From positions 1 to 25,606 of IMG/VR virus record IMGVR_UViG_648276669_000005: a stretch of DNA of 25,606 nt; one strand, given 5' to 3'. Source of the stretch: a virus (taxonomy: Duplodnaviria > Heunggongvirae > Uroviricota > Caudoviricetes). Positions 1,136 through 25,606 of this stretch are shown here, piece after piece. The number at the start of each line of letters is the position of its first letter. Position 1 is the first letter of the stretch. A program made the position numbers and the translations under genes. Below the pieces are notes generated by a model. It was not told where the DNA came from and ran no database searches. It saw only the letters and a list, made by a program, of their open reading frames with translations.

Positions 1136-2467
1136 TCATTGGAGCAAGAAAACTTTTAAGGTGTTTTTGAATATTCTAACAGGGTCTTCTACACCTGCAT
1201 TTCCTTTTAAAATATGATAATCACTTATTTCAGCCCATCTGTTTTTTTCATCGTTTTCAGAAGGAAGTAAAGGAGAACCTTCTGGCATATATTTATAAGT
1301 TATACCAAATAATGCATAATAGTAGATGTTGATGTTATATTGATCTGTCTGATATGGGAGTCTATTAACACCGAAGAAATTGATTATTAATTGTGCATCT
1401 ATTTTATCTTCTACGTAGTTAAGGGCCAGTTCACGACCAAACGAATAAAGAATTACTGCAAGGGTTCGATAACAGCAATAGCCTGGTATAAATTTATTGC
1501 TGATTTCATTTTGAGATAAAATTTGATAAATTTCTAGATATCTTGATAAGGTTTCAACTTCCCGTAGCGACAAGCCTTTTAGTTCGATAAATTTTTGAAC
1601 TATATGAATACTACTTTCTCCAATTTCTTTTAGTCTTTCAGACTCGTTACATAGCATTCTAAAATGAGAGTTCGAAGCCAAAATTTTATCGTAATTGTTT
1701 TCAGTGAAAGTCACTGGCAGGCTGTAAGTGAATTTTATAAATTTATCAAGATATCTTTCTGAGTCAACACCTGCACCGTAAATATGATTTATTGATGCTT
1801 TCAATTGTGAGATGTTAGCAACTAACAAGAAGTTAAGATTTTCAGTGTCAAAAACATGTTTTATATTTTCGATGATAGAGATGGCAAAGCTTGGTTTACA
1901 ACGGTCAAGTTCGTCAATGATAATTGTTATTTTATTTTCGCTAGTTAGTTCAGCAAGTACTTCCTTGAGAGCAAGCAAATGTTTCTTTGCTTCAATATGA
2001 TCATCAAGCAGTGCTTCTACAGTACCATCTATAGCTGAGTTAGCCGCATCTTTAATAGCATCTTCGAATTCATCCGCAATATCATCTGCATTTTGTTTTA
2101 AAATCCACCCAGCGCCAGCTTTGAGTACAGTTTTAAGTCCAAATCTCAATGCTGGTAATGCCTTTGATATTAATTCCTTCTTTTCACTCTCTGGATATAA
2201 TGCAACTATTGCAGCCATTATAGTAAGTATGGGAGCATCATTATGATCTTCAGTAAATGCATCAATATATACTACTTTATGCCCAGATTCATTTTTTTCA
2301 ATCAATGCCGCTAATTTTTTTGAAAATTCGGTTTTACCGGTACCCCAGTCCCCATCGATAACAATAGGGGATATTTTTAAGGGGGACTCGAGTAAGCTTA
2401 TTATTTTTTCAGCAATGATTTTTCTATTATACTCATCTCTGTTTTCAAAAGTCATATCATTATTCAT
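1136..2467 (-). CDS. KAP-family-like P-loop NTPase (cargo gene)
   Basis: Walker A GDWGTGKT with the Trp typical of KAP NTPases, Walker B IIIDELDRC (KAP-type hhhhD[DE]LDR). No obvious TM insert. First ATG at 2467; 2476 is TTG. Strongly AT-rich relative to phage backbone. Confidence 0.6.
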   Translation of the reverse strand: MNNDMTFENRDEYNRKIIAEKIISLLESPLKISPIVIDGDWGTGKTEFSKKLAALIEKNESGHKVVYIDAFTEDHNDAPILTIMAAIVALYPESEKKELISKALPALRFGLKTVLKAGAGWILKQNADDIADEFEDAIKDAANSAIDGTVEALLDDHIEAKKHLLALKEVLAELTSENKITIIIDELDRCKPSFAISIIENIKHVFDTENLNFLLVANISQLKASINHIYGAGVDSERYLDKFIKFTYSLPVTFTENNYDKILASNSHFRMLCNESERLKEIGESSIHIVQKFIELKGLSLREVETLSRYLEIYQILSQNEISNKFIPGYCCYRTLAVILYSFGRELALNYVEDKIDAQLIINFFGVNRLPYQTDQYNINIYYYALFGITYKYMPEGSPLLPSENDEKNRWAEISDYHILKGNAGVEDPVRIFKNTLKVFLLQ

Positions 2468-2478
2468 ATGAAGCAACC

Positions 2479-9048: not shown

Positions 9049-9282
9049 ATGCGCATTGAAATAATGATCGATAAAGAGCAGAAGATTAGCCAGTCTACAC
9101 TGGACGCCCTTGAATCCGAGCTTTACCGCAATCTGCGCCCCCTGTATCCCAAAACGGTAATTCGTATCCGCAAAGGTAGCTCTAACGGTGTGGAACTGAC
9201 CGGACTGCAACTGGACGAAGAAAGAAAACAAGTGATGAAAATTATGCAGAAGGTGTGGGAAGACGACAGCTGGCTGCATTAA
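9049..9282 (+). CDS. DinI-family protein
   Basis: 77 aa from ATG 9049 (GAGGTGA RBS); MRIEIMIDK...LDALESEL.R...P...VIRIRKG....ELTGL..EERKQVMKIMQKVWEDDSWL parallels E. coli DinI as recalled (MRIEV...IDALAGEL.RR...P...V.VRY....SVIG...EDKQRISEILQETWESADDWF). Confidence 0.65.
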   Translation: MRIEIMIDKEQKISQSTLDALESELYRNLRPLYPKTVIRIRKGSSNGVELTGLQLDEERKQVMKIMQKVWEDDSWLH

Positions 9283-9460
9283 GAAACGTTGCCCCCAGGA
9301 GGATTCATTCTGATGGGGGCTAGTTTGGGCAACGAGTGAAATAAGGTGTAAGGTCATTTTGATAAATGATCGTCTGCTTTGTGCAAGATGCAAACGTTTC
9401 TTCTGCTAACTTTTGTTAATTAACGAATGGCAGACTAATTCGCAACGGATAATCTGAATT

Positions 9461-9489
9461 TTGTAAGATTATGGGCATTTCTATAAAAT
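9461..9489 (+). promoter_or_regulatory. candidate sigma70 promoter for the 647-aa NTPase gene
   Basis: TTGTAA, 17-bp spacer, TAAAAT in AT-rich intergenic DNA about 100 nt upstream of ATG 9597. Confidence 0.25.
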
Positions 9490-9596
9490 TTACTAATAAT
9501 AACCTTACAATGTACACTACCGATTGAATTTTCCATAGTTGGCCTTTGGCTCTACTTACCATCTATGTTTATGTATTTTATCAAAATGGACTAAAA

Positions 9597-11489
9597 ATGA
9601 ACAATACGTACATCAAAGACTATATAGAATATTACCTTAGCCTTACAACTGAACCTCAATACGCCATTATGCTTAAAGGTGCTTGGGGATCAGGTAAAAC
9701 TTGGTTCATTGAACAAGTTCTTGAAGAATATAAGCAGAAGAATTCAGAGTTTAAATTTCTAAAAGTGAGTTTGTATGGCGTCAACTCTATTAAGCAGATT
9801 GAAGATGAGTTCTATCGTCAACTTCATCCTGTCCTATCAAACAAAGCCCTTATCTTTGGTGCAAATGTACTAAAAAATACGCTTAAGGCTACTTTCAAGA
9901 TCGATCTCAATGGCGATAATAAATCTGACGTTGATGTCAATACCAATGTTCCCACCATTAATCTTAACGATTTTAGTAGAAAACCAGATGGTTTTGTGCT
10001 GGTCTTTGATGATATCGAGAGAGCTGGTATAGATTTACCAATTTTATTTGGATATATAAACCACTTTGTAGAAGTAAACGGATACAAAGCGATCTTGGTT
10101 GCCAATGAAGAAGAAATAATCAATAGAGAAAAGCGAATAAATAATGATGATGAGAAATCTAGCAGCGAATATATGAGAACAAAAGAAAAGCTTGTTGGTA
10201 AAACATTTGAAGTAACGTCAGATTTACATAGTGCTTGTAATGTTTTTTTGGGCGTAATTAGCAGTTTACACGTTGCTAATATATTTAAAGAAGATATGCA
10301 GGCCATAGAAGACATCTATGTGTCGGCGAAATATAATAATCTAAGACACTTGAGGCAGTTCTTTCTTGATGTACAACGCATCATTTCCCTTTTGGGAAAT
10401 AAATATGTCAGCAACGACGATTTTATGAGGGTATTTTTCCAGCAGTTGTTAATTTTCTCGATAGAGTACCGGGGAGGGAACCTTAACTACGAGGATTTCG
10501 ATTCAATCAGCAATGTTAATTATGGTATGTTTTTAGGTAAAGAGCGTACCAAAACTAAGTATGACATGATCGCCGAGAAATATTCATCTCCTGTATTAAC
10601 CGAGAAGTTACTGGATGGTGCGTACTGGAGGGAGCTAATCTGTGATGGAAAGGTAACGAGTGAACTTCTCGCTCAGTTGGATATTACGCGATTTTTTAGA
10701 AGCACCGATGCCCAAGCATGGGAGTATTTGTGGAACTATCGAGAACTTAATGAAACTATGCTTAATGAGCAGTACGCCATTGCCAAGGATAATCTATTTT
10801 CAGGTAAGATCACTTCCTTAGGTGAACTCCTGATGACCGCGAGTATTTTGCTGGACATGGCGAAAGAAGGTCTAACAACAGATGATGTTCATGATCTCAT
10901 AAATGAGACAAAACAGAATATAAATAATTATTATAATAGACTTAGAGCTGAAGATATACATAAGGAATATGCGCAAACGCATTATAACGAATTAAGGGCA
11001 TGGCGTGGCTTTGGTTTTCTTGACAGGGATAGCGATGAATTCAAACTCATTATTGAGCATATTGAGATAGCGAAGAAGAAACGGTTTGATGAATCAATTC
11101 CGGAATTTGCGTTGCAGTTCAGCGATGAGTTGCAAAGGGGAAACTTATCGTTTGTATCTGAATTGAGTCATTCTAATAATAGGCAGTTAAATCTTCATAA
11201 CGTGCCTTTTTTACACTTGGTTCCTCCTGAAGTTTTCATTGAAAGCTATAGGAAACTTGACCCAGTCCTCATGAGGAAACTGGCATTTAGCTTGCGGAAT
11301 CGTTATTCTGATGGGGATGCTAGAACCAGACTGACCGAAGAATACAACTGGTTGATTAACCTAAAAGAGATAGCTGTAGATTTCACTCAAAACGCAGCCA
11401 ATAACTCCTTTCAGGTTTTTCACGTAAAGTTTTTTATTGACTATGTACTAACTAGCGCAATCAAATTCTTTACTGAGGGAACTGATTAA
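9597..11489 (+). CDS. KAP-family-like P-loop NTPase, 630 aa (hotspot cargo; candidate defence protein)
   Basis: Walker A GAWGSGKT (KAP-type Trp), Walker B VLVFDDIERAG, large C-terminal region without recognisable motifs. First ATG at 9597; track start 9546 is TTG. AT-rich. Confidence 0.6.
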   Translation: MNNTYIKDYIEYYLSLTTEPQYAIMLKGAWGSGKTWFIEQVLEEYKQKNSEFKFLKVSLYGVNSIKQIEDEFYRQLHPVLSNKALIFGANVLKNTLKATFKIDLNGDNKSDVDVNTNVPTINLNDFSRKPDGFVLVFDDIERAGIDLPILFGYINHFVEVNGYKAILVANEEEIINREKRINNDDEKSSSEYMRTKEKLVGKTFEVTSDLHSACNVFLGVISSLHVANIFKEDMQAIEDIYVSAKYNNLRHLRQFFLDVQRIISLLGNKYVSNDDFMRVFFQQLLIFSIEYRGGNLNYEDFDSISNVNYGMFLGKERTKTKYDMIAEKYSSPVLTEKLLDGAYWRELICDGKVTSELLAQLDITRFFRSTDAQAWEYLWNYRELNETMLNEQYAIAKDNLFSGKITSLGELLMTASILLDMAKEGLTTDDVHDLINETKQNINNYYNRLRAEDIHKEYAQTHYNELRAWRGFGFLDRDSDEFKLIIEHIEIAKKKRFDESIPEFALQFSDELQRGNLSFVSELSHSNNRQLNLHNVPFLHLVPPEVFIESYRKLDPVLMRKLAFSLRNRYSDGDARTRLTEEYNWLINLKEIAVDFTQNAANNSFQVFHVKFFIDYVLTSAIKFFTEGTD

Positions 11490-11919: not shown

Positions 11920-12975
11920 ATGCTTAAAACAAATAAGGTATTTATTGACACACAAACGTACGTAAAGGCTGGTCTTCATTTTGAGGGGGTAGCATTTAAA
12001 GCTTTCCATGAATTATGTGCGAAAGGTGATTTAGTCTTAATTACAACTACAGTTGTAGAGAGAGAAGTAAAAGGTAAAATAGAGGAATCAATAAAGGATG
12101 CTCTGCAGGCTATAAACACAGTACAAAGAAAAGCTAGGCTTTTGAATAGTATTGATAATGGACCGCTCCATGGTTTTTTTCAGCAATTTAACGAACATGA
12201 AATTCACGAAGCAGCACAAAAAGTTTTTGATGATTTTTTGAAAGGATGTCACGCCAAATTAGCTACAATAGAAGTGATAGATCTTAATGAGGTTTTAGAT
12301 AAATACTTTGGCAAAGAACCACCATTTGGGCAAAATAAGAAAAAAAGTGAGTTTCCTGATGCAATCACTTTAGCTGCGGTAGAGCGATTTGTTAATGATG
12401 AAGATGTGTATATCATTTCTGAGGATAGTGACTTAAAAAATTATTGTGATGGTAAAAACAATCTTCATCAAATTGATTCACTTGATAAGTTTCTAGGTGA
12501 ATACAATACGCATACAAACGAATTAAGTAATAAATTGATGCAGTTTATCGAAAGCAAACGTGAAGACATAAGAGCGGACGTAATTGCCCAACTCAATGAT
12601 GCCGATGGATATAACGTTTCAACTTGGGAAGACGCTGAATTGGATTCATTTGAAGTCGTCAATATTGATGACTTTGAACCATCAATAATTAAGATTGACA
12701 ATAATTATTGTCTAGCGACCTTCTCTGTTTCTGTAGATTTTGAAGTTACTGTTTCTGGTCCAGACTTTAATAATGGGTATTGGGATAGCGAAGATAAAGT
12801 AATGATTCCAATGGAGACAACCACACGAACTGAAGTTCAAGAGATTAGTTTCGATATTGAAATTGAAGTTATGTATGAAATCGAGGATGGTGAATTAACA
12901 GATATCGCATTTGATGTGAATATTGATAAGTTATCCCGAGGGATTGAGTTCTCTATTGAAGAAAATAATTTTTAA
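11920..12975 (+). CDS. hypothetical protein with N-terminal PIN-like nuclease fold and acidic C-terminal domain (cargo)
   Basis: 351 aa; N-terminus KVFIDTQTYV (PIN motif-1-like hhhDT), VVEREV, later DAITLAAVERFVNDEDVYIISEDSDL giving the spaced acidic residues of PIN domains; C-terminal third very D/E-rich. AT-rich with own AT-rich upstream region. Confidence 0.45.
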   Translation: MLKTNKVFIDTQTYVKAGLHFEGVAFKAFHELCAKGDLVLITTTVVEREVKGKIEESIKDALQAINTVQRKARLLNSIDNGPLHGFFQQFNEHEIHEAAQKVFDDFLKGCHAKLATIEVIDLNEVLDKYFGKEPPFGQNKKKSEFPDAITLAAVERFVNDEDVYIISEDSDLKNYCDGKNNLHQIDSLDKFLGEYNTHTNELSNKLMQFIESKREDIRADVIAQLNDADGYNVSTWEDAELDSFEVVNIDDFEPSIIKIDNNYCLATFSVSVDFEVTVSGPDFNNGYWDSEDKVMIPMETTTRTEVQEISFDIEIEVMYEIEDGELTDIAFDVNIDKLSRGIEFSIEENNF

Positions 12976-12993: not shown

Positions 12994-13020
12994 GGCATCA
13001 TTGTGATGCCATTGGGTTTT
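12994..13020 (+). terminator. stem-loop terminator between convergent PIN-like gene and Q
   Basis: ggcatca-ttg-tgatgcc perfect 7-bp hairpin followed by attgggtttt. Confidence 0.45.
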
Positions 13021-14044
13021 ATAATGTATATATTTCAAAATTTATAATTTCATGACCAAGCCATCTGTTTATTTCCATGAATCTTTTTTGAAGTGGTAAT
13101 AGTTCATTTCTTACGAAGACGCAGCTCGCCTTCTCCACATCACCAAAACCCCCAACATTATTCGGCAAAATTCCCATCATCTGAGGCGGTACGCGGTGTG
13201 CCGCCATCATGTCATCACGGCTGACGTTCTTGATGTTCAGAAATTCATCCTTCGCCGCGACTTCTGACAACGGGATGATCTGAAGCCCGTCCTTTTTGCC
13301 GTTAGGCGAGTACATAAACAGGTTGCGGAAGTTGCCAGGGCCTTTGGCGCTTTTCATCGCATTGCGGAGGTTGTTCACATCCTCCTGGTTCTGCGCGGCA
13401 TCGGTCATGTACATGATGAAGCCTGCATGGCTGCCGTTAATGTAATACTTCCGGCGGAACAGCGTGGCGGACTCGTTGAGCAGGGCTGACGGAATGGCAG
13501 AAAGATAACCTGGTAGGCCGTAGATCTCCTGGTTGATGTCAGGTTCCATCAGATGAAAAATGCTGCCTTTCGTGAACTGATACGGCTGGGTTGTCATACC
13601 GTATTGCACAAACCAGTAGGTATCCAGGTCTAACCCGCGTCGGGTGTATTTTGCCAGCGCAGGCTCAAGGGCGATAACTTCACCGAAGCGGTTCGTGCGT
13701 TTCTCCAGGTAGGCGTTACCAAATACCAGGTAGTCCTGCACAAAACGTGAAAAAGCCTGCTGACTGAGCAGCGGGTGAGGGATATAGGTACTGGTCAGAA
13801 TGTTGCACTTTACTGCAATCGGGGAACTGTGATGCACGGCAGCGCGGAAGGTGCGCGCCAGTCCGTCAAAGCTGACGGGCGGCTCATACCAACGGTCCAT
13901 CTGTACGCATTCCACATAGTCCAGTAATTCTCGGCGGTCCAGAACAGGAACGGGATCGCCGAAGCTGAATGCTTCGGCTGTAGTTTGACTTTTAAGCTGG
14001 ATCTGATTCGTCGCCGCAGCGCGGTTCTTCTTACTCTTTCCCAT
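13019..14044 (-). CDS. Q: portal protein gpQ
   Basis: 341 aa, matching P2 Q (about 344 aa) in size and position, convergent with hotspot and upstream of terminase; ATG 14044 overlaps P stop. Confidence 0.85.
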   Translation of the reverse strand: MGKSKKNRAAATNQIQLKSQTTAEAFSFGDPVPVLDRRELLDYVECVQMDRWYEPPVSFDGLARTFRAAVHHSSPIAVKCNILTSTYIPHPLLSQQAFSRFVQDYLVFGNAYLEKRTNRFGEVIALEPALAKYTRRGLDLDTYWFVQYGMTTQPYQFTKGSIFHLMEPDINQEIYGLPGYLSAIPSALLNESATLFRRKYYINGSHAGFIMYMTDAAQNQEDVNNLRNAMKSAKGPGNFRNLFMYSPNGKKDGLQIIPLSEVAAKDEFLNIKNVSRDDMMAAHRVPPQMMGILPNNVGGFGDVEKASCVFVRNELLPLQKRFMEINRWLGHEIINFEIYTL

Positions 14045-15808
14045 CAAAAAATCTCCACAATATTGCTGGCATTGGCGGATTCGCCCTGCAGCGGTTCGTT
14101 AAACAGTGCGTGCATCGTTGCCCAGGCCAGATCGGCGTGGCTGGCTTCTTCGCTGCGGCTGGCTTCATAGGTCGGGCGGTTGCCGCTGGCGGTGGTAGCG
14201 CGACGGATTGCCATAAATGATTGCGCAATGTCGGTGTGCCCGGCGTCAAACTCCAGACGGCGGTGGCTGATAATGTCGTAGGCCTTGAGCACCAGGGCGT
14301 TTTTAACGTTGGGGTTGTAGACAAACTCCCGGACGGCAGGAAAGAATGCTTTCACGTTCTCGTAAACCCCGTGACCAACGCCGGTTGAGTCGATACCGAT
14401 ATAAGTCACGTTGTACTGTTCGGTCAGTTTTTTGATGGCGTCAGCCTGAGCGCGGAAGTCCATCCCGCGCCACTGGTGACGCTCAAGAATGCGGAATTTA
14501 CCGCCCGGTACGGCTGGCGGTGCCACCACCACGCATCCGGCACTGTCGCCGTTCTGAGTACCTTTTGCGGGGTCATAACCGATCCATACTTCGCGCCAGC
14601 CAAACGGGCGCAGGGCCAGTGCATGAAAGTCGGTCCAGACTTCCCAACTGTCCACCATGCACGCCTGCAGTTCGCTGAGCGGGAACACGGACGCGAGATC
14701 GTCCACGAACTCACACATCAGCAGGTTCTGGTATTCGTCCGGGCTGTATTCCATGCGCAACTGGTCAAGGTCGAACAGGTTACAGCCGCCGCGCACCGCA
14801 TCTTCCACGGTGACTATCTGGCGGTATTGTCCGTCTGCGCACAGCAGGCCGGGGGCCAGATTGCTGTGGGACAGGTCGATGTCCACCTTATCGGCTTTGT
14901 TGCGCCCACGGTTGAACAGCGCACCGGACCAGAACGGATAAGCACTGTGTGTCAGGCTGGATGGCGTGGAAAAATAGGTCTGTCGCCATTTTTTGTGAAT
15001 AGCCATACCGGAAGCCACTTTGCGCAGCTCCTGGAATTTCGGTATCCAGAAATATTCATCCAGATACAGGTTGCCGTGATAACTCTGGGCCGTGCGGGCA
15101 TTGGTGCCGAGGAAGTAAAGCGTGGCCCCGTTAGGAAGCACCATCGGATCGCCTTTCAGCTCCACCTCCACTTCTTTAGCGAAGTCGATGATGTACTGCT
15201 TAAAGACGTGGGCCTGTGCCTTGCTGGCGGAAAGGAAAATCTGGTTACGTCCGGTAAGCAGAGCGTCAATCAGGGCTTCACGGGCAAAGTAAAAGGTCGC
15301 GCCGATCTGGCGTGACTTCAGCAGGTTGCGGATGCGGTTGGTTTTTCCGGCTTCCCACCAGTGGCGCTGGTAGTTGAACATGGAGGAATGGAAGATTTCT
15401 TCCAGCTTCTCAATCTGCTCATCGGTGAAAACATTCTTTTCCGGCTGACGGCGCGGGCCTTTGTTGCGGTTGGCGACGTTAGGGTTTAAGTCGGCTTCGT
15501 TGCCGCCATTGTTAAACTTGCCGATCCGCGCGTGGCGTTCCGACTGGCGCGCCAGCAGGTCAATCTCTTTGAAATCTTTCCCTTCTTTGTGCTCCTTCAT
15601 AATGAGCTGGCAGTAGCGTGCGGCGGTGGTGAGCTGCATCTGATCCAGCGGCCCATAGTCACCCCACTGCGCGTTTTTTCCAGCTGTGAACGGTTGCAAC
15701 TTTCTCGCCCAGCATTTCAGCAATGCGGGCTACGCGGTATCCCTGAAAGTACAGCAGCATGGCCTGCCGACGGGGATCGAGATCTGCGGGTGTCAGTGTG
15801 GTGTTCAT
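14044..15808 (-). pseudogene. P: terminase large (ATPase) subunit gpP with apparent +1 frameshift near 15674-15679
   Basis: Frame A from ATG 15808 encodes MNTTLTPADLDPRRQAMLLYFQGYRVARIAEMLGEKVATVHSWKKR, matching recalled P2 gpP N-terminus, then stops; frame B (ORF 14044-15723) carries the remaining 559 aa. Frames switch at an A6 run (T6 on plus strand). Could be a sequencing error. Confidence 0.8.
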
Positions 15809-15854
15809 GGAACAAACCTACAGCCTTGAATGAAGGCTTTCCCCGCCTGCGGTT

Positions 15855-15872
15855 TGTGTGGTTGTCGGTACA
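15855..15872 (+). promoter_or_regulatory. late-promoter activator (Ogr/Delta-type) site, TGT-N12-ACA, upstream of O
   Basis: tgtgtggttgtcggtaca in the P/O divergent intergenic region, centre about 85 nt upstream of O ATG, as expected for a site centred near -55. Confidence 0.45.
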
Positions 15873-15950
15873 AATACCGCGCATTGTTTCACTGCCCCTA
15901 TCACCGCAACCATAAGGCTCCAGTAAGTTTTTTCTAACGGAGCACGGCTC

Positions 15951-16784
15951 ATGACAGTGAAAGCAAAGCGTTTTCGCATCGGGGTGGAAGGTGCCACCAC
16001 CGACGGACGCGAAATCCAGCGTGAATGGCTGGAACAGATGGCAGCCAGCTACAACCCGGCGGTGTATACCGCGCTGATTAACCTTGAGCACATCAAGTCT
16101 TATCTTCCGGACAGCACCTTTAACCGCTACGGCAAGGTGACGGCGCTGTTTGCTGAAGAAATCACGGAAGGTCCGCTGGCAGGCAAGATGGCGCTGTATG
16201 CCGACGTTGAGCCAACGGAGTCCCTGGTGGAACTGGTGAAAAAAGGCCAGAAATTATTCACCTCTATGGAAGTCAGCCCGAAGTTTGCTGATACGGGCAA
16301 AGCCTACCTGGTCGGCCTGGCTGCCACTGATGACCCTGCCAGTCTGGGCACTGAAATGCTGACATTCAGCGCCAGTGCAGCCCATAACCCGCTGGCAAAC
16401 CGCAAGCAGAATCCCGCCAATCTTTTTACCGCTGCAGAGGAAACGGTGATCGAACTGGAAGAAATCCAGGATGACAAACCGTCCCTGTTTGCCCGTGTCA
16501 CGGCGCTGTTCACCAAAAAAGAGCAGTCCGATGACGCCCGGTTCTCTGATGTGCATAAGGCCGTGGAACTGGTCGCCACTGAGCAGCAGAACCTGAGTGC
16601 GCGCACCGAAAAATCCCTGTCTGAGCAGGAAGAACGCCTGTCTGAGCTGGAGACTGCCCTGCAGGCACAGCAGACCGCCTTTAACGAACTGGTGGACAAG
16701 CTGAGCCATGAAGACAGCCGCCAGGACTACCGCCAGCGTGCAACAGGCGGTAACGCCCCCGCTGACACTCTGACCAATTGCTGA
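15951..16784 (+). CDS. O: capsid scaffolding protein gpO
   Basis: 277 aa; RFRIGVEG.T.DGR, INLEH, TSMEV.P.FA.TGK.YLVGLA.TDDPASLGTE, NPL, SDDARF.DVH and C-terminal ATGG...TNC all parallel P2 gpO as recalled. Confidence 0.9.
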   Translation: MTVKAKRFRIGVEGATTDGREIQREWLEQMAASYNPAVYTALINLEHIKSYLPDSTFNRYGKVTALFAEEITEGPLAGKMALYADVEPTESLVELVKKGQKLFTSMEVSPKFADTGKAYLVGLAATDDPASLGTEMLTFSASAAHNPLANRKQNPANLFTAAEETVIELEEIQDDKPSLFARVTALFTKKEQSDDARFSDVHKAVELVATEQQNLSARTEKSLSEQEERLSELETALQAQQTAFNELVDKLSHEDSRQDYRQRATGGNAPADTLTNC

Positions 16785-16800
16785 TGGAGCACAAAACCTG

Positions 16801-17859
16801 ATGAAGAAGAATACCCGCTTTGCTTTTAACGCTTACCTGCAGCAACTGGCGCGTCTGAACGGTGTGGCAGTTGAAGAACTGTCCAGCAAGTTCACCGTAG
16901 AGCCGTCCGTGCAGCAGACATTGGAAGACCAGATCCAGCAGTCCGCCGCTTTCCTGACGCTGATTAACGTCACGCCAGTGACTGAGCAGTCCGGTCAGCT
17001 GCTGGGGTTGGGAGTTGGCAGCACCATTGCCGGAACCACTGATACCACCGCGAAAGAGCGTGAACCTGTCGATCCGACGCTGATGGTCGATGTGGAATAT
17101 AAATGCGAGCAGACCAACTTTGACACGGTACTGACCTACGCGAAGCTGGACCTGTGGGCGAAGTTTCAGGATTTTCAGGTGCGTATCCGTGACGCCATCG
17201 TGAAACGTCAGGCACTGGACCGCATCATGATCGGCTTTAACGGCGTGAAGCGTGCGAAAACCTCCAACCGTAGCGAAAACCCGCTACTGCAGGATGTGAA
17301 TAAAGGCTGGCTGCAGAAAATCCGTGAGGATGCACCGGATCACGTCATGGGCAGCACCACCACGGGCGGTGAAACCACACCGGGTGCGGTGAAAGTCGGG
17401 AAAGGTGGCGAATATGCCAACCTGGACGCCGTAGTGATGGATGCCGTCAATGAGCTTATCGATGTGGTCTACCAGGACGATGACGATCTGGTGGTGATTT
17501 GCGGTCGTGAACTGCTGTCTGACAAGTATTTCCCGCTGGTCAACAAAGAGCAGGAAAACAGTGAAAAACTGGCTGCCGATATGATCATCAGTCAGAAACG
17601 CATGGGTGGCCTGCAGGCCGTACGTGCGCCGTTCTTCCCGCCGAATGCGCTGCTGATCACCCGTCTGGATAACCTGTCCATCTACTGGCAGGAAGACACC
17701 CGCCGCCGTTCGGTTATCGACAACCCGAAACGTGACCGGATTGAAAATTTTGAATCCGTTAACGAAGCCTACGTGGTTGAGGACTACCGCTGCGCCGCAC
17801 TGGTGGAAAACATCCAGATTGGCGACTTCAGCGCCGCCGCAGCAGAAGCCGGAGCGTAA
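16801..17859 (+). CDS. N: major capsid protein gpN
   Basis: 352 aa (P2 N about 357 aa), directly after O in canonical order. Confidence 0.85.
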   Translation: MKKNTRFAFNAYLQQLARLNGVAVEELSSKFTVEPSVQQTLEDQIQQSAAFLTLINVTPVTEQSGQLLGLGVGSTIAGTTDTTAKEREPVDPTLMVDVEYKCEQTNFDTVLTYAKLDLWAKFQDFQVRIRDAIVKRQALDRIMIGFNGVKRAKTSNRSENPLLQDVNKGWLQKIREDAPDHVMGSTTTGGETTPGAVKVGKGGEYANLDAVVMDAVNELIDVVYQDDDDLVVICGRELLSDKYFPLVNKEQENSEKLAADMIISQKRMGGLQAVRAPFFPPNALLITRLDNLSIYWQEDTRRRSVIDNPKRDRIENFESVNEAYVVEDYRCAALVENIQIGDFSAAAAEAGA

Positions 17860-17862
17860 ACC

Positions 17863-18513
17863 ATGAGCCTGAGTCCCGCACGGCAGCATCGCCTGCGCGT
17901 TCAGGCTGAACAGGCCGCCCGCGAGGGCGGCAGCGTTCGCCACGCGTCGGGCTATGACCTGATGCTGCTGCAACTGGCGGAAGACCGCCGCCGTCTCAAG
18001 GGCGTTCAGTCCACGGTCAAAAAAGCGGAAATCAAGGTGGAGCTGCTGCCGAAGTACGCTGCCTGGGCGGAGGGTGTCCTGGCTGCCGGAGGCGCTCAAC
18101 AGGATGACGTGCTGATGTACGTGATGCTGTGGCGCATTGATGCCGGAGATTATGCCGGGGCGCTGGAGATCGGGCGTCATGCCCTGCGTCATGGCTGGGT
18201 GATGCCGCTGGGTAACCGCAACGTGCAGACCGTGCTGGCAGAGGAAATGGCAGACGCCGCGCAGAGCGCAATGCTTGCCGCCATCGGCTTTGATGCCGAT
18301 CTGTTGCTGCAGACACTGGAGCTGACAGACGGTCTGGATATGCCGGACCAGTCACGGGCGCGTCTGCATAAAGCGATTGGCGCTGTCCTGAGTGAAAGCA
18401 ATCCGGCTTCCGCCCTTAATCATCTCAACCATGCGTTACAGCTCGATCCCCGCTGTGGCGTGAAAAAAGACAAACAGCAGCTGGAGCGCAGACTGCGCAA
18501 TGACAGCCGCTGA
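17863..18513 (+). CDS. M: terminase small (endonuclease) subunit gpM
   Basis: 216 aa, Arg-rich N-terminus, follows N as in P2. Confidence 0.8.
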   Translation: MSLSPARQHRLRVQAEQAAREGGSVRHASGYDLMLLQLAEDRRRLKGVQSTVKKAEIKVELLPKYAAWAEGVLAAGGAQQDDVLMYVMLWRIDAGDYAGALEIGRHALRHGWVMPLGNRNVQTVLAEEMADAAQSAMLAAIGFDADLLLQTLELTDGLDMPDQSRARLHKAIGAVLSESNPASALNHLNHALQLDPRCGVKKDKQQLERRLRNDSR

Positions 18514-18608
18514 CAGAACGTGCCCCCGCGCACGGGCGGCACGGGGTGGCGAAAGGCATAGCCACATCAAAACCCCGTCCACCGCCCTCTATTTCAGGAG
18601 GAAGCAGC

Positions 18609-19073
18609 ATGAAGTTTGTTGCGCCAGAACAGGCACCGGAACAGGCGGAAATCATCAGAAATACGCCGTTCTGGCCTGATGTGGACCTGTCGGAGTTTCG
18701 CAGCGTGATGCGCACTGACGGCACGGTGACGCAGCCGCGTTTAAAGCAGGTTGCGCTGTCGGCAATTTCGGAGGTCAACGCAGAGCTGTATGAGTTTCGC
18801 AGACGCCAGCAGATGCTGGGGTATGTCTCGCTGGCAGAGGTTCCTGCAGAACAGCTGGACGGGAAAAGTGAGCGCATTCAGCACTATTTCAACGCGGTTT
18901 ACTGCTGGGCACGCGCCATGCTCAACGAACGTTACCAGGACTATGACGCCACGGCATCCGGTGTGAAGCGGGGCGAGGAACTGGCGGAAGCCAGCGGTGA
19001 TTTATGGCGTGACGCCCGCTGGGCCATCAGCCGGGTGCAGGACGCGCCGCACTGCACAGTGGAGCTTATCTGA
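18609..19073 (+). CDS. L: head completion/stabilisation protein gpL
   Basis: 154 aa from ATG 18609 with AGGAGG RBS; position after M as in P2. Confidence 0.75.
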   Translation: MKFVAPEQAPEQAEIIRNTPFWPDVDLSEFRSVMRTDGTVTQPRLKQVALSAISEVNAELYEFRRRQQMLGYVSLAEVPAEQLDGKSERIQHYFNAVYCWARAMLNERYQDYDATASGVKRGEELAEASGDLWRDARWAISRVQDAPHCTVELI

Positions 19074-23656: not shown

Positions 23657-24254
23657 TCTGCTGCCACCGGGTTCAACTTCACTGGAGCGCCGACTGGCGC
23701 AAACCTGTAGCGGGATTTCTGATCTGCAGGTGCCGCTGCGTGACTTGTGGAATCCGGCTACCTGCCCGGTCAGCTTCCTGCCTTATCTCGCCTGGGCGTT
23801 CTCTGTGGATCGCTGGGACGAGGGCTGGACAGAAAGCGTCAAACGCCAGGTAGTGAAGGATGCTTTTTATATTCATCAGCATAAAGGAACCACCAGTGCC
23901 GTGCGGCGGGTGGTGGAACCGTTCGGATTCCTGATCCGCATTATTGAGTGGTGGCAGACCGGAGAGGCTCCGGGCACGTTTCGCCTGGATATCGGCGTGC
24001 AGGACCAGGGCATCACTGAAGATACCTATCTGGAACTTGAGCGACTGATAAGCGATGCCAAACCATGTAGCCGCCACATGATCGGCATGTCCATCAATCT
24101 GCAGACCAGCGGCCCGCATTGGGTGGGAGCCGCCAGCTATCTTGGCGAAGAAATCACGATCTATCCGTATATCAACGAAACAATTATTTCTGGCGGCACC
24201 GCGCATGAAGGCGGGGCGGTCCATGTTATTGACACAATGAGAGTGAATCCATGA
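23649..24254 (+). CDS. I: baseplate protein gpI
   Basis: 201 aa after J, overlapping stop/start. Confidence 0.75.
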   Translation: MNSLLPPGSTSLERRLAQTCSGISDLQVPLRDLWNPATCPVSFLPYLAWAFSVDRWDEGWTESVKRQVVKDAFYIHQHKGTTSAVRRVVEPFGFLIRIIEWWQTGEAPGTFRLDIGVQDQGITEDTYLELERLISDAKPCSRHMIGMSINLQTSGPHWVGAASYLGEEITIYPYINETIISGGTAHEGGAVHVIDTMRVNP

Positions 24255-25606
24255 GCACAAAATTTTATACCCTGCTGACGGATATTGGCGCGGCGAAACT
24301 TGCCAGCGCCGCCGCGCTCGGTGTGCCGCTAAAAATTACCCATATGGCGGTCGGCGATGGCGGCGGAGTATTGCCAACGCCAGACTCAAAGCAGACTGCA
24401 CTGGTAAATGAGAAACGCCGGGCTGCGCTGAATATGCTTTATATCGACCCGCAGAACAGCAGCCAGATTATTGCCGAACAGGTGATCCCTGAAAACGAGG
24501 GCGGTTGGTGGATTCGTGAAGTGGGCCTGTTTGATGAGTCCGGGGCATTGATTGCCGTGGGCAACTGCCCGGAAAGCTATAAGCCGCAACTGGCTGAAGG
24601 TAGCGGGCGCACTCAGACCGTGCGCATGGTGCTGATTACCAGCAGCACGGACAATATCACCCTGAAAATCGACCCTGCTGTAGTGCTGGCAACCCGTAAA
24701 TACGTGGATGATGAAGTCCTGGAATTAAAGCTGTATGTGGATGACCAGATGAGAAACCACATTGCCGCACAAGATCCTCATACCCAGTATGCGCAGAAAC
24801 ATAATCCGACATTTACCGGAGAACCAAAAGCGCCGACGCCTGCAGCAGGAAATAACACCACGCGGATTGCGACCACTGAGTTTGTTCAGGCCGCTATTAC
24901 TGCTCTGATTAACGGTGCGCCAGCCACGCTGGACACACTGAAAGAAATTGCCGCAGCCATTAACAATGACCCGAAATTCAGTACCACCATTAACAATGCG
25001 CTGGCACTAAAAGCGCCGCTGTCGAGTCCGGCACTCACCGGAACGCCAACAGCACCTACTGCGGCGCAGTCGGTCAACAATACACAGATTGCCACTACGG
25101 CTTTTGTGAAATCGGCGATTGCAGGAATGGTGGGTTCTGCACCTGCGGCACTGGATACACTGAACGAACTGGCGGCGGCACTGGGGAATGATCCGAACTT
25201 TGCCACGACAATGCTTAATGCGCTGGCAGGTAAACAACCGCTGGACAATACGCTTACCAATTTGAGTGGAAAGGATGTAGCTGGTCTTCTCACATACCTT
25301 GGTTTGGGAGAATTATCTCTGGCTGGCACTGCATCGGGTGTCATTGGTCTGAATGGGTATGTAACGATTCCGTTAATTATTTCAGGTTCCCGGAGAACAC
25401 TGATTATTCAGTGGGGGCAGGCGAGATTTGGTGGGTCTGGTGGTGAAGATGCCGGATATCTTAATGATTTTCCTTTTGCCTTTCCGTCAGCATGTTATGG
25501 GGTGATAGTTAGTCATGTGGGGTATACACCTTCAGGCGCAGGAATCCTGTCGGCTTCTGCAATTACATCAAATCAGTTCCGCGGTTTTCTAAGCGATAGC
25601 GACTGC
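24251..25606 (+). CDS. H: tail fibre protein gpH (3' partial, runs off window end)
   Basis: Open frame from ATG 24251 to window end; MSTKFYTLLTDIGAAKLA... with repeated ...ATTEFV/ATTAFV... and ...LDTLKEIAAA/LDTLNELAAA... segments typical of P2-type tail fibres. Confidence 0.8.
   Translation, partial: MSTKFYTLLTDIGAAKLASAAALGVPLKITHMAVGDGGGVLPTPDSKQTALVNEKRRAALNMLYIDPQNSSQIIAEQVIPENEGGWWIREVGLFDESGALIAVGNCPESYKPQLAEGSGRTQTVRMVLITSSTDNITLKIDPAVVLATRKYVDDEVLELKLYVDDQMRNHIAAQDPHTQYAQKHNPTFTGEPKAPTPAAGNNTTRIATTEFVQAAITALINGAPATLDTLKEIAAAINNDPKFSTTINNALALKAPLSSPALTGTPTAPTAAQSVNNTQIATTAFVKSAIAGMVGSAPAALDTLNELAAALGNDPNFATTMLNALAGKQPLDNTLTNLSGKDVAGLLTYLGLGELSLAGTASGVIGLNGYVTIPLIISGSRRTLIIQWGQARFGGSGGEDAGYLNDFPFAFPSACYGVIVSHVGYTPSGAGILSASAITSNQFRGFLSDSDC

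What the first reader, a model, noticed from the sequence alone, without database searches (positions are those of the whole stretch)
15660..15810. Terminase large-subunit gene split by a +1 frameshift in a T6/A6 homopolymer
The conserved terminase N-terminus (MNTTLTPADLDPRRQAMLLYFQGYRVARIAEMLGEK...) is in a different frame from the rest of the gene. The frames switch at the A6 run around 15674-15679 on the coding strand; with five A the reading would be continuous. Either a sequencing error or a real inactivating mutation, in which case the prophage cannot package DNA and is a domesticated element kept for its cargo.
Basis: seen in the sequence. Interest (0 to 1): 0.55.

Follow-up and report, generated by a model that had tools for sequence, protein, structure and literature searches.

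The report
Two-base gap splitting a prophage terminase
The DNA-packaging (terminase) gene of a P2-like prophage in the 2010-era draft genome of E. coli TA206 is broken by two missing bases found in no other genome, so it is most likely a sequencing error, or at most a very recent mutation, and is ordinary either way.

Summary
The split is real in the deposited sequence. A 49-aa stub (15659-15808, minus strand) ends at TGA, and the rest of the large-terminase gene gpP (14044-15639/15723) continues in the +1 frame. The cause is mis-assigned. The A6/T6 run (15674-15679) is the wild-type state (W-K-K-R) in intact relatives. The lesion is the loss of two single T's (A's on the coding strand) flanking a G at 15668/15669: relatives have CGCGACAAGTGG, the window has CGCGCAGTGG. 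Restoring those two bases gives a 588-aa protein identical to an allele seen on at least 1,000 public contigs. The lesion junction occurs only in the source, E. coli TA206 draft GCA_000176595.2, where GenBank already lists two CDS. A second assembly carries the same prophage with an intact gene. It is 99.986% identical over 21.5 kb, and the window's only private differences from it are these two deletions. The same draft has two other private homopolymer indels that truncate host genes within 10 kb. An independent assembly that probably comes from the same strain's reads breaks at 6-base homopolymers. Best reading: sequencing or consensus artefact (about 0.62). Rival: a genuine, very recent inactivating mutation (about 0.33). 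"Domesticated prophage kept for cargo" is not supported, because everything else in the window is intact. Interest is low.

The parts
15667..15670 (-). The lesion. Two single-base losses flank a G: the coding strand reads CGCG-CAG-TGG where relatives read CGCG-ACAAG-TGG, and the + strand reads ACTGCGCG where relatives read ACTTGTCGCG.
   Evidence: Alignment A1. blastn and megablast gap lists. Restoring the two bases recreates the common 588-aa allele exactly.
15674..15679 (-). The A6 (T6 on +) homopolymer encoding K44-K45. This is the wild-type state, not the lesion, though it may be a nearby trigger for a pyrosequencing miscall.
   Evidence: The same A6 run is present in the intact genes of Cartapus, 813R9 and L021. 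The noisy NCTC assembly L008 has A5 here.
15659..15808 (-). 49-aa N-terminal stub (GenBank EGI27144.1): 46 native residues followed by A-V-G and TGA. It holds positions 1-36 of the 58-position Terminase_5 HTH domain.
14044..15639 (-). 531-aa remainder (GenBank EGI27143.1), starting at the first in-frame ATG 19 nt after the stub's stop. It holds the Terminase_6N ATPase and Terminase_6C nuclease domains. The open frame extends upstream to a TTG at 15723 (559 aa).
13019..14047 (-). Portal gene (gpQ), whose start overlaps the terminase stop. It lies downstream in the same operon and is intact.
15951..18513 (+). The divergently transcribed genes gpO (scaffold), gpN (major capsid) and gpM (small terminase), all intact. 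They define the P2-type packaging and head module.

Best explanation
The split terminase is most likely an artefact of the deposited draft assembly of E. coli TA206 (GCA_000176595.2). On this reading, two adjacent single-base under-calls of the same nucleotide (A on the coding strand) occurred 5-9 nt after an A6 homopolymer and entered the consensus. The real prophage would then carry an intact 588-aa gpP-type large terminase, identical to the allele common across Enterobacteriaceae, and would be an ordinary, probably functional, P2-like (Peduoviridae) prophage. Shown: the lesion is private to one assembly; the prophage is otherwise pristine; the same draft has other private homopolymer indels. 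Inferred: the sequencing platform was pyrosequencing, and the miscall arose from signal-phasing problems after the homopolymer.
For: (1) Private to one assembly. The 49-aa stub is on record on one contig only, out of 153 billion gene positions. The 42-nt lesion junction has 0 hits in genome contigs, viral contigs and metagenome contigs. None of 1,122 places in 1,084 complete E. coli genomes or 58 phage records lacks the two bases. (2) The repaired protein is identical to an allele seen on at least 1,000 contigs. (3) L021 (GCA_021725975.1) carries the same prophage at 99.986% over 21,487 nt with an intact gene. The only substitution between them is private to L021. So TA206 has 0 private substitutions but 2 private single-base deletions, and they lie 2 nt apart. 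(4) The draft is demonstrably prone to indels. In 10 kb of host flank there are two more private frameshifts, both homopolymer-length changes (A6 where 5 other genomes have A5, and A6 where they have A7). They truncate a Peptidase_S11 gene and a GST gene. (5) The Logan contig from SRR024341, 100.000% identical to TA206 including host DNA, ends inside an A6 run at one end and 21 nt from a T6 run at the other. With about 1.8 such runs per kb, I estimate the chance of both at roughly 1%. This fits homopolymer-noisy reads. (6) 454 errors are mostly insertions and deletions, are not randomly placed, and can exceed 50% at particular positions (PMC3116506). (7) Among all relatives inspected, the only other disruption by single-base indels is in an assembly with obvious scattered 1-nt noise (L008). 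The disruptions that look genuine are an IS insertion or kb-scale deletions.
Against: The lesion is not itself a long-homopolymer length change: it is TT to T plus the loss of a lone T. It also lies in the interior of a contig: the window has no N, the nearest gap found is about 9.9 kb to the right, and no gap lies in the roughly 33 kb checked to the left. By contrast, the other two private indels sit 93 and 233 nt from a gap. Away from gaps, about 33 kb of this draft shows no other private indel, so the interior error rate is not obviously high. The sequencing platform was not verified with the tools; that the Broad collection was 454-sequenced is my recollection. The absence of the stub from the SRR024341 assembly is weak evidence, because that assembly probably breaks at the adjacent A6 run anyway. 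No reads were inspected.
Confidence: 0.62

Rival explanations
1. The 2-nt loss is a genuine, very recent mutation in the TA206 lineage (one complex event or two adjacent -1 events). It truncates gpP inside its N-terminal Terminase_5 HTH domain and separates that domain from the ATPase-nuclease core. Because gpP is a core packaging enzyme of P2-like phages, the prophage would be newly defective for packaging DNA. It would be a first step of decay, not a long-domesticated element.
For: The lesion is in the deposited sequence, in a contig interior and not in a long homopolymer. The break falls at profile position 36 of 58 of the Terminase_5 domain. gpP is one of the seven hallmark proteins of Peduoviridae (PMC13100340). 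Loss or disruption of this gene does happen in relatives, through an IS insertion (L009) and kb-scale deletions (L020, L022, L024, L025, L046-L050). Silent prophage genes are not under selection in a lysogen (general knowledge).
Against: There are no private substitutions in 21.5 kb, so divergence time is close to zero and very few real indels are expected. Two separate deletions of the same base 2 nt apart is an unusual spontaneous event. The lesion is seen in no other genome or metagenome. The same draft has other private frameshifts of a type typical of sequencing error.
Confidence: 0.33
2. The break is real but leaky or tolerated. One route is a +1 ribosomal slip at the stub's terminal GGG-UGA-C, which gives ...WKKRAVGDYGPL..., 587 aa. 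The other is termination followed by reinitiation at the ATG 19 nt downstream, which gives a 531-aa core plus a free HTH stub. Either way some terminase activity would remain, so the gene would work as a recoded or two-piece enzyme.
For: The frame arithmetic works. A +1 shift at GGG_UGA_C rejoins the native frame after replacing only DKWG with AVG. UGA-C is a weak stop context, and prfB uses CUU-UGA-C (my own knowledge). An in-frame ATG follows the stop by 19 nt, with a weak GGA upstream.
Against: It cannot be an evolved feature, because the arrangement exists in one assembly only while the unsplit gene is on at least 1,000 contigs. No Shine-Dalgarno-like stimulator precedes the GGG, where the upstream sequence is AAACGCGCAGTG. 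The restart product would lack residues 1-57, and the conserved HTH domain would be cut at position 36 of 58. There is no experimental support.
Confidence: 0.03
3. This is a domesticated prophage: the terminase was inactivated and the element is kept by selection for its cargo genes.
For: The window carries candidate defence cargo: KAP NTPases that match PADLOC PDC-S20 and PDC-S49, plus a PIN_12 protein. Relatives that have lost their head and tail genes do keep this cargo.
Against: All other genes in the window are intact. The prophage is 99.986% identical to an intact copy in a divergent host, which points to recent transfer as a working phage. The lesion is not shared by any other genome, so there is no sign that it is fixed or maintained.
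Confidence: 0.02

Closest known systems
Bacteriophage P2 gpP-type large terminase subunit (Peduoviridae hallmark PeduoPF0005), e.g. YP_010663975.1 of Escherichia phage Cartapus
   Same: 97.5% DNA identity over the whole gene. Same domain order (Terminase_5 HTH, Terminase_6N ATPase, Terminase_6C nuclease). Same context: the gene runs into the portal gene (stop and start overlap) and lies divergent from gpO-gpN-gpM.
   Different: The window copy lacks 2 nt at codons 47-48, so it reads as a 49-aa stub plus a 531-aa remainder instead of 588 aa.
The same prophage in GCA_021725975.1 (contig JAKJUU010000008.1, locus L021)
   Same: 99.986% identical over window 1-21487. Same integrase, cargo and attachment region next to rcdA.
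   Different: Its terminase is intact at 588 aa. It has one private substitution (at the position matching window 8832). Its host flank is only 96.7% identical to TA206.
Homopolymer-associated indel errors in pyrosequencing (454) draft assemblies
   Same: Single-base indels private to one older draft. The same draft has A5/A6/A7 length discrepancies. The lesion lies next to an A6 run and removes two bases of the same nucleotide (PMC3116506).
   Different: The two lost bases are not inside a long homopolymer, and the site is not at a contig end. The platform was not verified here.
Decayed P2-like prophage remnants in E. coli (ogr, truncated terminase, portal, PIN_12, DUF6236; loci L046-L050, L020-L025)
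   Same: Same phage lineage and same cargo neighbourhood, with terminase function lost.
   Different: Those remnants carry kb-scale deletions of head and tail genes and recur in many genomes. The window has a single private 2-nt lesion and is otherwise complete.
Programmed +1 frameshifting of prfB (RF2), CUU-UGA-C
   Same: A P-site codon is followed by UGA-C, and a +1 shift would rejoin the productive frame.
   Different: It is not conserved in any homologue and has no upstream Shine-Dalgarno-like stimulator. The site was created by the lesion itself.

Membership tests
P2 gpP-type large terminase (Terminase_5 + Terminase_6N + Terminase_6C) | N-terminal Terminase_5 (gpP-like HTH) domain | tested here: met
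   PF06056 matches at 9.4e-19 in the stub, but only profile positions 1-36 of 58. The full 1-58 is present in the intact relative.
P2 gpP-type large terminase (Terminase_5 + Terminase_6N + Terminase_6C) | T4-type ATPase domain and RNaseH-like nuclease domain | tested here: met
   PF03237 at 2.8e-65 and PF17289 at 1.6e-49 in the 559-aa frame. A P-loop-like SRQIGAT motif is visible in the translation.
P2 gpP-type large terminase (Terminase_5 + Terminase_6N + Terminase_6C) | One uninterrupted reading frame of about 588 aa | tested here: not met
   The frame is broken after codon 46 by a net 2-nt loss. It is intact in every relative compared across the site, except one visibly noisy assembly (L008) and one with an IS insertion (L009); the kb-scale deletion remnants no longer contain the site.
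P2 gpP-type large terminase (Terminase_5 + Terminase_6N + Terminase_6C) | P2-type module context: gpP runs into portal gpQ, divergent from gpO-gpN-gpM-gpL | tested here: met
   ORF map and the annotated relatives.
Sequencing or assembly artefact (pyrosequencing-type indel) | Variant confined to a single assembly and absent from near-identical sequences | tested here: met
Sequencing or assembly artefact (pyrosequencing-type indel) | The same assembly shows other private homopolymer-length indels | tested here: met
   A6 against A5 and A6 against A7 in the host flank, each private when compared with 5 genomes.
Sequencing or assembly artefact (pyrosequencing-type indel) | The lesion is itself a homopolymer-length miscall | tested here: inconclusive
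   One lost base is TT to T (a 2-mer) and the other is a lone T. Both are the same nucleotide and lie 5-9 nt from an A6 run.
Sequencing or assembly artefact (pyrosequencing-type indel) | Raw reads or an independent resequencing contradict the consensus | not testable with these tools
Programmed ribosomal frameshift | The split-frame arrangement is conserved among homologues | tested here: not met
   The unsplit gene is on at least 1,000 contigs and the split is on one.
Programmed ribosomal frameshift | A shift-prone site with a stimulatory element | tested here: inconclusive
   GGG-UGA-C is present, but no Shine-Dalgarno-like stimulator lies upstream. Downstream structure was not examined.
Domesticated or cryptic prophage | Several inactivating lesions or deletions of lytic genes | tested here: not met
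   This is the only frame-breaking indel in about 23 kb, and the window is identical to the intact L021 elsewhere.
Domesticated or cryptic prophage | The lesion is shared across a host lineage (vertical retention) | tested here: not met
   The lesion is found in one assembly only.

The most novel reading that the evidence does not exclude
If the 2-nt loss is real, it happens to create a GGG-UGA-C stop, where a +1 slip would rejoin the native frame with only DKWG replaced by AVG. There is also a restart ATG 19 nt downstream. The prophage could then still make a little working terminase, which would make it a natural example of a leaky, newly arisen recoding site in an essential phage gene.
Probability: 0.03. 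Interest if true: 0.35.

Novelty: not a real feature. Interest (0 to 1): 0.07.

Why it matters
It matters little biologically. Whether artefact or fresh mutation, this is a single private lesion in an otherwise standard P2-like prophage, and GenBank already lists the gene as two CDS (EGI27143.1 and EGI27144.1). The practical points concern method. (1) A homopolymer next to a frame break is not necessarily the site of the break, and one alignment to an intact relative moved the lesion and changed the predicted resequencing result. (2) Frameshifts in older draft assemblies should not be read as prophage domestication unless they are shared across genomes or come with further decay. (3) Truly decayed relatives of this phage, which keep the same KAP-NTPase and PIN cargo, do exist and would be better material for studying domestication.

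Tried and rejected
(a) Exact 42-nt lesion junction searched in genome contigs, viral contigs and metagenome contigs: 0 hits each. (b) I tried to reach the independent Logan assembly of SRR024341, probably the same strain, across the lesion. gpO is in 17,188 blocks and the portal in 1,687, so only the longest contigs were read and the short SRR024341 contigs were never reached. The question stays open. (c) Absence of the stub and of the 531-aa product from SRR024341 contigs: I first took this as evidence for an intact gene, then gave it less weight. That assembly breaks at 6-base homopolymers, and one lies 5 nt from the lesion. (d) Literature search for the assembly accession found nothing. Papers that mention TA206 give its origin (an Australian animal isolate from the Broad collection, PMC4422515) but not the platform. 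(e) Collapse of two P2-like prophages into a chimeric consensus: rejected, because the window is 99.986% identical to a single intact relative over 21.5 kb. (f) A templated (quasi-palindrome) mutation: by eye the new sequence does not pair noticeably better with nearby inverted sequence, so I did not pursue it. (g) PDB sequence search with the intact protein: no meaningful homologue. (h) My first scan for restart codons used the wrong frame offset and was redone.

Full report
What is there. Window 13019-18513 is the packaging and head module of a P2-like (Peduoviridae) prophage. It holds the portal gpQ (13019-14047, minus strand), the large terminase gpP (14044-15808, minus strand), and the divergent gpO, gpN and gpM genes (15951-18513, plus strand). 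The best phage match for gpP is Escherichia phage Cartapus, at 97.5% identity over the whole gene. The gene is broken in the window. A 49-aa ORF (15659-15808) ends at TGA, and the rest of the protein continues in the +1 frame. Pfam places Terminase_5 (a helix-turn-helix domain) at residues 11-68 of an intact relative, Terminase_6N (ATPase) at 162-382 and Terminase_6C (nuclease) at 410-571. The stub keeps only profile positions 1-36 of the 58 in Terminase_5, so the break falls inside that domain.

Where the lesion really is. The run is there, and removing one base from it does fuse the frames into a 587-aa ORF. But intact relatives span 1767 nt against 1765 in the window, and the alignment shows they carry the same A6 run (TGG AAA AAA CGC = W-K-K-R). 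The window instead reads CGCG-CAG-TGG where they read CGCG-ACAAG-TGG. Megablast places this as two separate single-T gaps on the + strand at 15668 and 15669 (ACT-G-CGCG against ACTTGTCGCG), with no mismatch. Restoring the two bases gives a 588-aa protein identical to that of locus L021. That exact sequence is on at least 1,000 contigs, the counter's cap, and is named a MULTISPECIES Enterobacteriaceae terminase.

How widespread the lesion is. The 42-nt junction has no exact match in the species-representative genomes, IMG/VR or the JGI metagenomes. A 101-nt query centred on it hits 1,122 places in 1,084 complete E. coli genomes and 58 phage records. Every listed hit spans 103 nt, and no record reaches 99% identity, so none lacks the two bases. 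The 49-aa stub is on record on a single contig: NCBI GCA_000176595.2, scaffold GL884168.1. The record names it EGI27144.1, 'terminase, ATPase subunit [Escherichia coli TA206]', and names the 531-aa remainder EGI27143.1. So the source is the TA206 draft, and the split was already annotated there. TA206 is an Australian animal isolate from the Broad Institute E. coli collection (PMC4422515).

The rest of the prophage. Against the 97%-identical prophage of E. coli H2, and against phage 813R9, the only frame-breaking indel inside a gene across about 23 kb is this one. The rare 630-aa KAP NTPase cargo gene served as a marker and led to L021 (GCA_021725975.1). L021 is 99.986% identical to window 1-21487: one substitution plus the two T gaps, with an intact 588-aa terminase. 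The substitution (window 8832) is private to L021, because the window shares its G with eight other relatives. The TA206 prophage therefore has no private substitutions in 21.5 kb. Its only private differences are two deletions of the same nucleotide, 2 nt apart. The host flank of L021 is only 96.7% identical to that of TA206, so the phage moved between lineages very recently and must have been packaging-competent until then. This rules out a long-domesticated element.

Quality of the source draft. The scaffold has an N-gap 3 nt beyond the window's end and another in the left host flank. Next to the left gap are two further indels that are private when compared with five other genomes. Both are homopolymer-length changes (A6 for A5 and A6 for A7). 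They shorten a Peptidase_S11 gene from 400 to 392 aa and a GST gene from 208 to 192 aa. A Logan assembly of the early SRA run SRR024341 yields a 3,831-nt contig that is 100.000% identical to TA206, including host DNA where other strains differ by 0.25-1%. It is therefore very probably the same strain. One of its ends lies inside an A6 run and the other lies 21 nt from a T6 run. With 1.8 such runs per kb, I estimate the chance of both at about 1%. This is what homopolymer-noisy (pyrosequencing-type) reads would do to a k-mer assembly. Published work on 454 Titanium reads shows that errors are mostly insertions and deletions, are not randomly placed, are linked to homopolymers and to carry-forward and incomplete extension, and can exceed 50% at particular positions (PMC3116506). 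That the Broad E. coli drafts of that period were 454-based is my recollection, not a tool result.

Disruptions of the same gene elsewhere. Two other contigs encode the same 531-aa product, and both have independent causes. L008 (an NCTC assembly) has about ten scattered 1-nt indels in 5.5 kb, including an A5 version of this very run. L009 (Logan SRR24337957) has an IS inserted near codon 38, ending TTTGCAACAGTGCC, which I recognise as the IS26 terminal repeat. Both keep the native GACAAG. Other relatives with the same cargo have lost their head and tail genes through kb-scale deletions (L020, L022, L024, L025). A remnant made of ogr, a truncated terminase, the portal, PIN_12 and DUF6236 recurs in many genomes (L046-L050). 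So decay that looks genuine in this lineage involves IS insertions and large deletions. Single-base frameshifts appear only in the two assemblies that show other signs of indel noise.

Weighing the explanations. Artefact (0.62). With essentially no divergence from an intact twin, very few real indels are expected in the window, whereas a draft of this kind plausibly has an indel error every few tens of kb. The draft shows such errors nearby. Both lost bases are the same nucleotide and follow an A6 run closely. Real recent mutation (0.33). The site is in a contig interior and is not a long homopolymer, about 33 kb of non-gap sequence is otherwise free of private indels, and silent prophage genes do acquire lesions. 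If the mutation is real, the consequence is loss of a hallmark packaging enzyme (PMC13100340), and hence a newly defective prophage, because the HTH domain is cut and detached from the motor. Leaky recoding or a two-piece enzyme (0.03). A +1 slip at the stub's GGG-UGA-C would rejoin the frame with DKWG replaced by AVG, and an ATG lies 19 nt after the stop. But nothing is conserved and no stimulator is present. Domestication for cargo (0.02) is contradicted as described above. Sanger sequencing of one PCR product, or mapping the original reads, would decide it. The informative outcome is the presence or absence of two extra T's at 15668/15669, not the length of the T6 run.

Verdict. This is an ordinary finding, most likely not a biological feature at all, and interest is low.

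Noticed in passing
window 1145-2476 (-), 9597-11489 (+), 11920-12975 (+): Cargo genes sit between the integrase and cI, and between the DinI-like gene and the portal (I recall these as the known variable cargo sites of P2-like phages). A 443-aa KAP P-loop NTPase matches the PADLOC candidate system PDC-S20 (1.9e-171). A 630-aa KAP NTPase matches PDC-S49 (2.5e-160). A PIN_12 protein has no PADLOC hit.
   Followed up: partly
window 24251-25606 and just beyond (L007 74-200 = window-equivalent 25609-25735): A scaffold N-gap starts 3 nt after the window's end. The tail-fibre gene (452 aa as called) runs right up to it, so its 3' end is probably cut by the gap rather than genuine.
   Followed up: no
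L029 18338 and 18954 (TA206 host flank, either side of the N-gap at 18572-18861): Two private homopolymer indels (A6 against A5, A6 against A7) truncate a Peptidase_S11 (dacC-like) gene to 392 aa and a GST gene to 192 aa. All five other genomes compared have 400 and 208 aa.
   Followed up: yes
L020, L022, L024, L025; L046-L050: Relatives with the same cargo have lost their head and tail genes through kb-scale deletions. A remnant of ogr, truncated terminase, portal, PIN_12 and DUF6236 recurs in many E. coli genomes (20 or more similar places not shown). These are the truly decayed, possibly domesticated, forms of this phage lineage.
   Followed up: partly
L009 about 9185-9960 (Logan SRR24337957): An IS with a DDE transposase (234 aa), ending TTTGCAACAGTGCC (which I recognise as the IS26 terminal repeat), is inserted in the same terminase gene at about codon 38. 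It is an independent, real disruption a few codons from the window's lesion.
   Followed up: partly
That is assembly noise, not biology.
   Followed up: yes
L021/L026 against the window and L029: The same prophage (99.986% identical) sits at the same site next to rcdA in a host whose flanking DNA is only 96.7% identical. This implies very recent horizontal spread of this phage between divergent E. coli lineages.
   Followed up: partly
cluster of the 49-aa stub: Thirty N-terminal fragments of this terminase, 42-56 aa long, are on record, and most of those listed are labelled 'partial' at contig ends. Many short-read assemblies seem to break 40-55 codons into this gene. Possibly co-resident P2-like prophages share the conserved 5' end and then diverge.
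   Followed up: no
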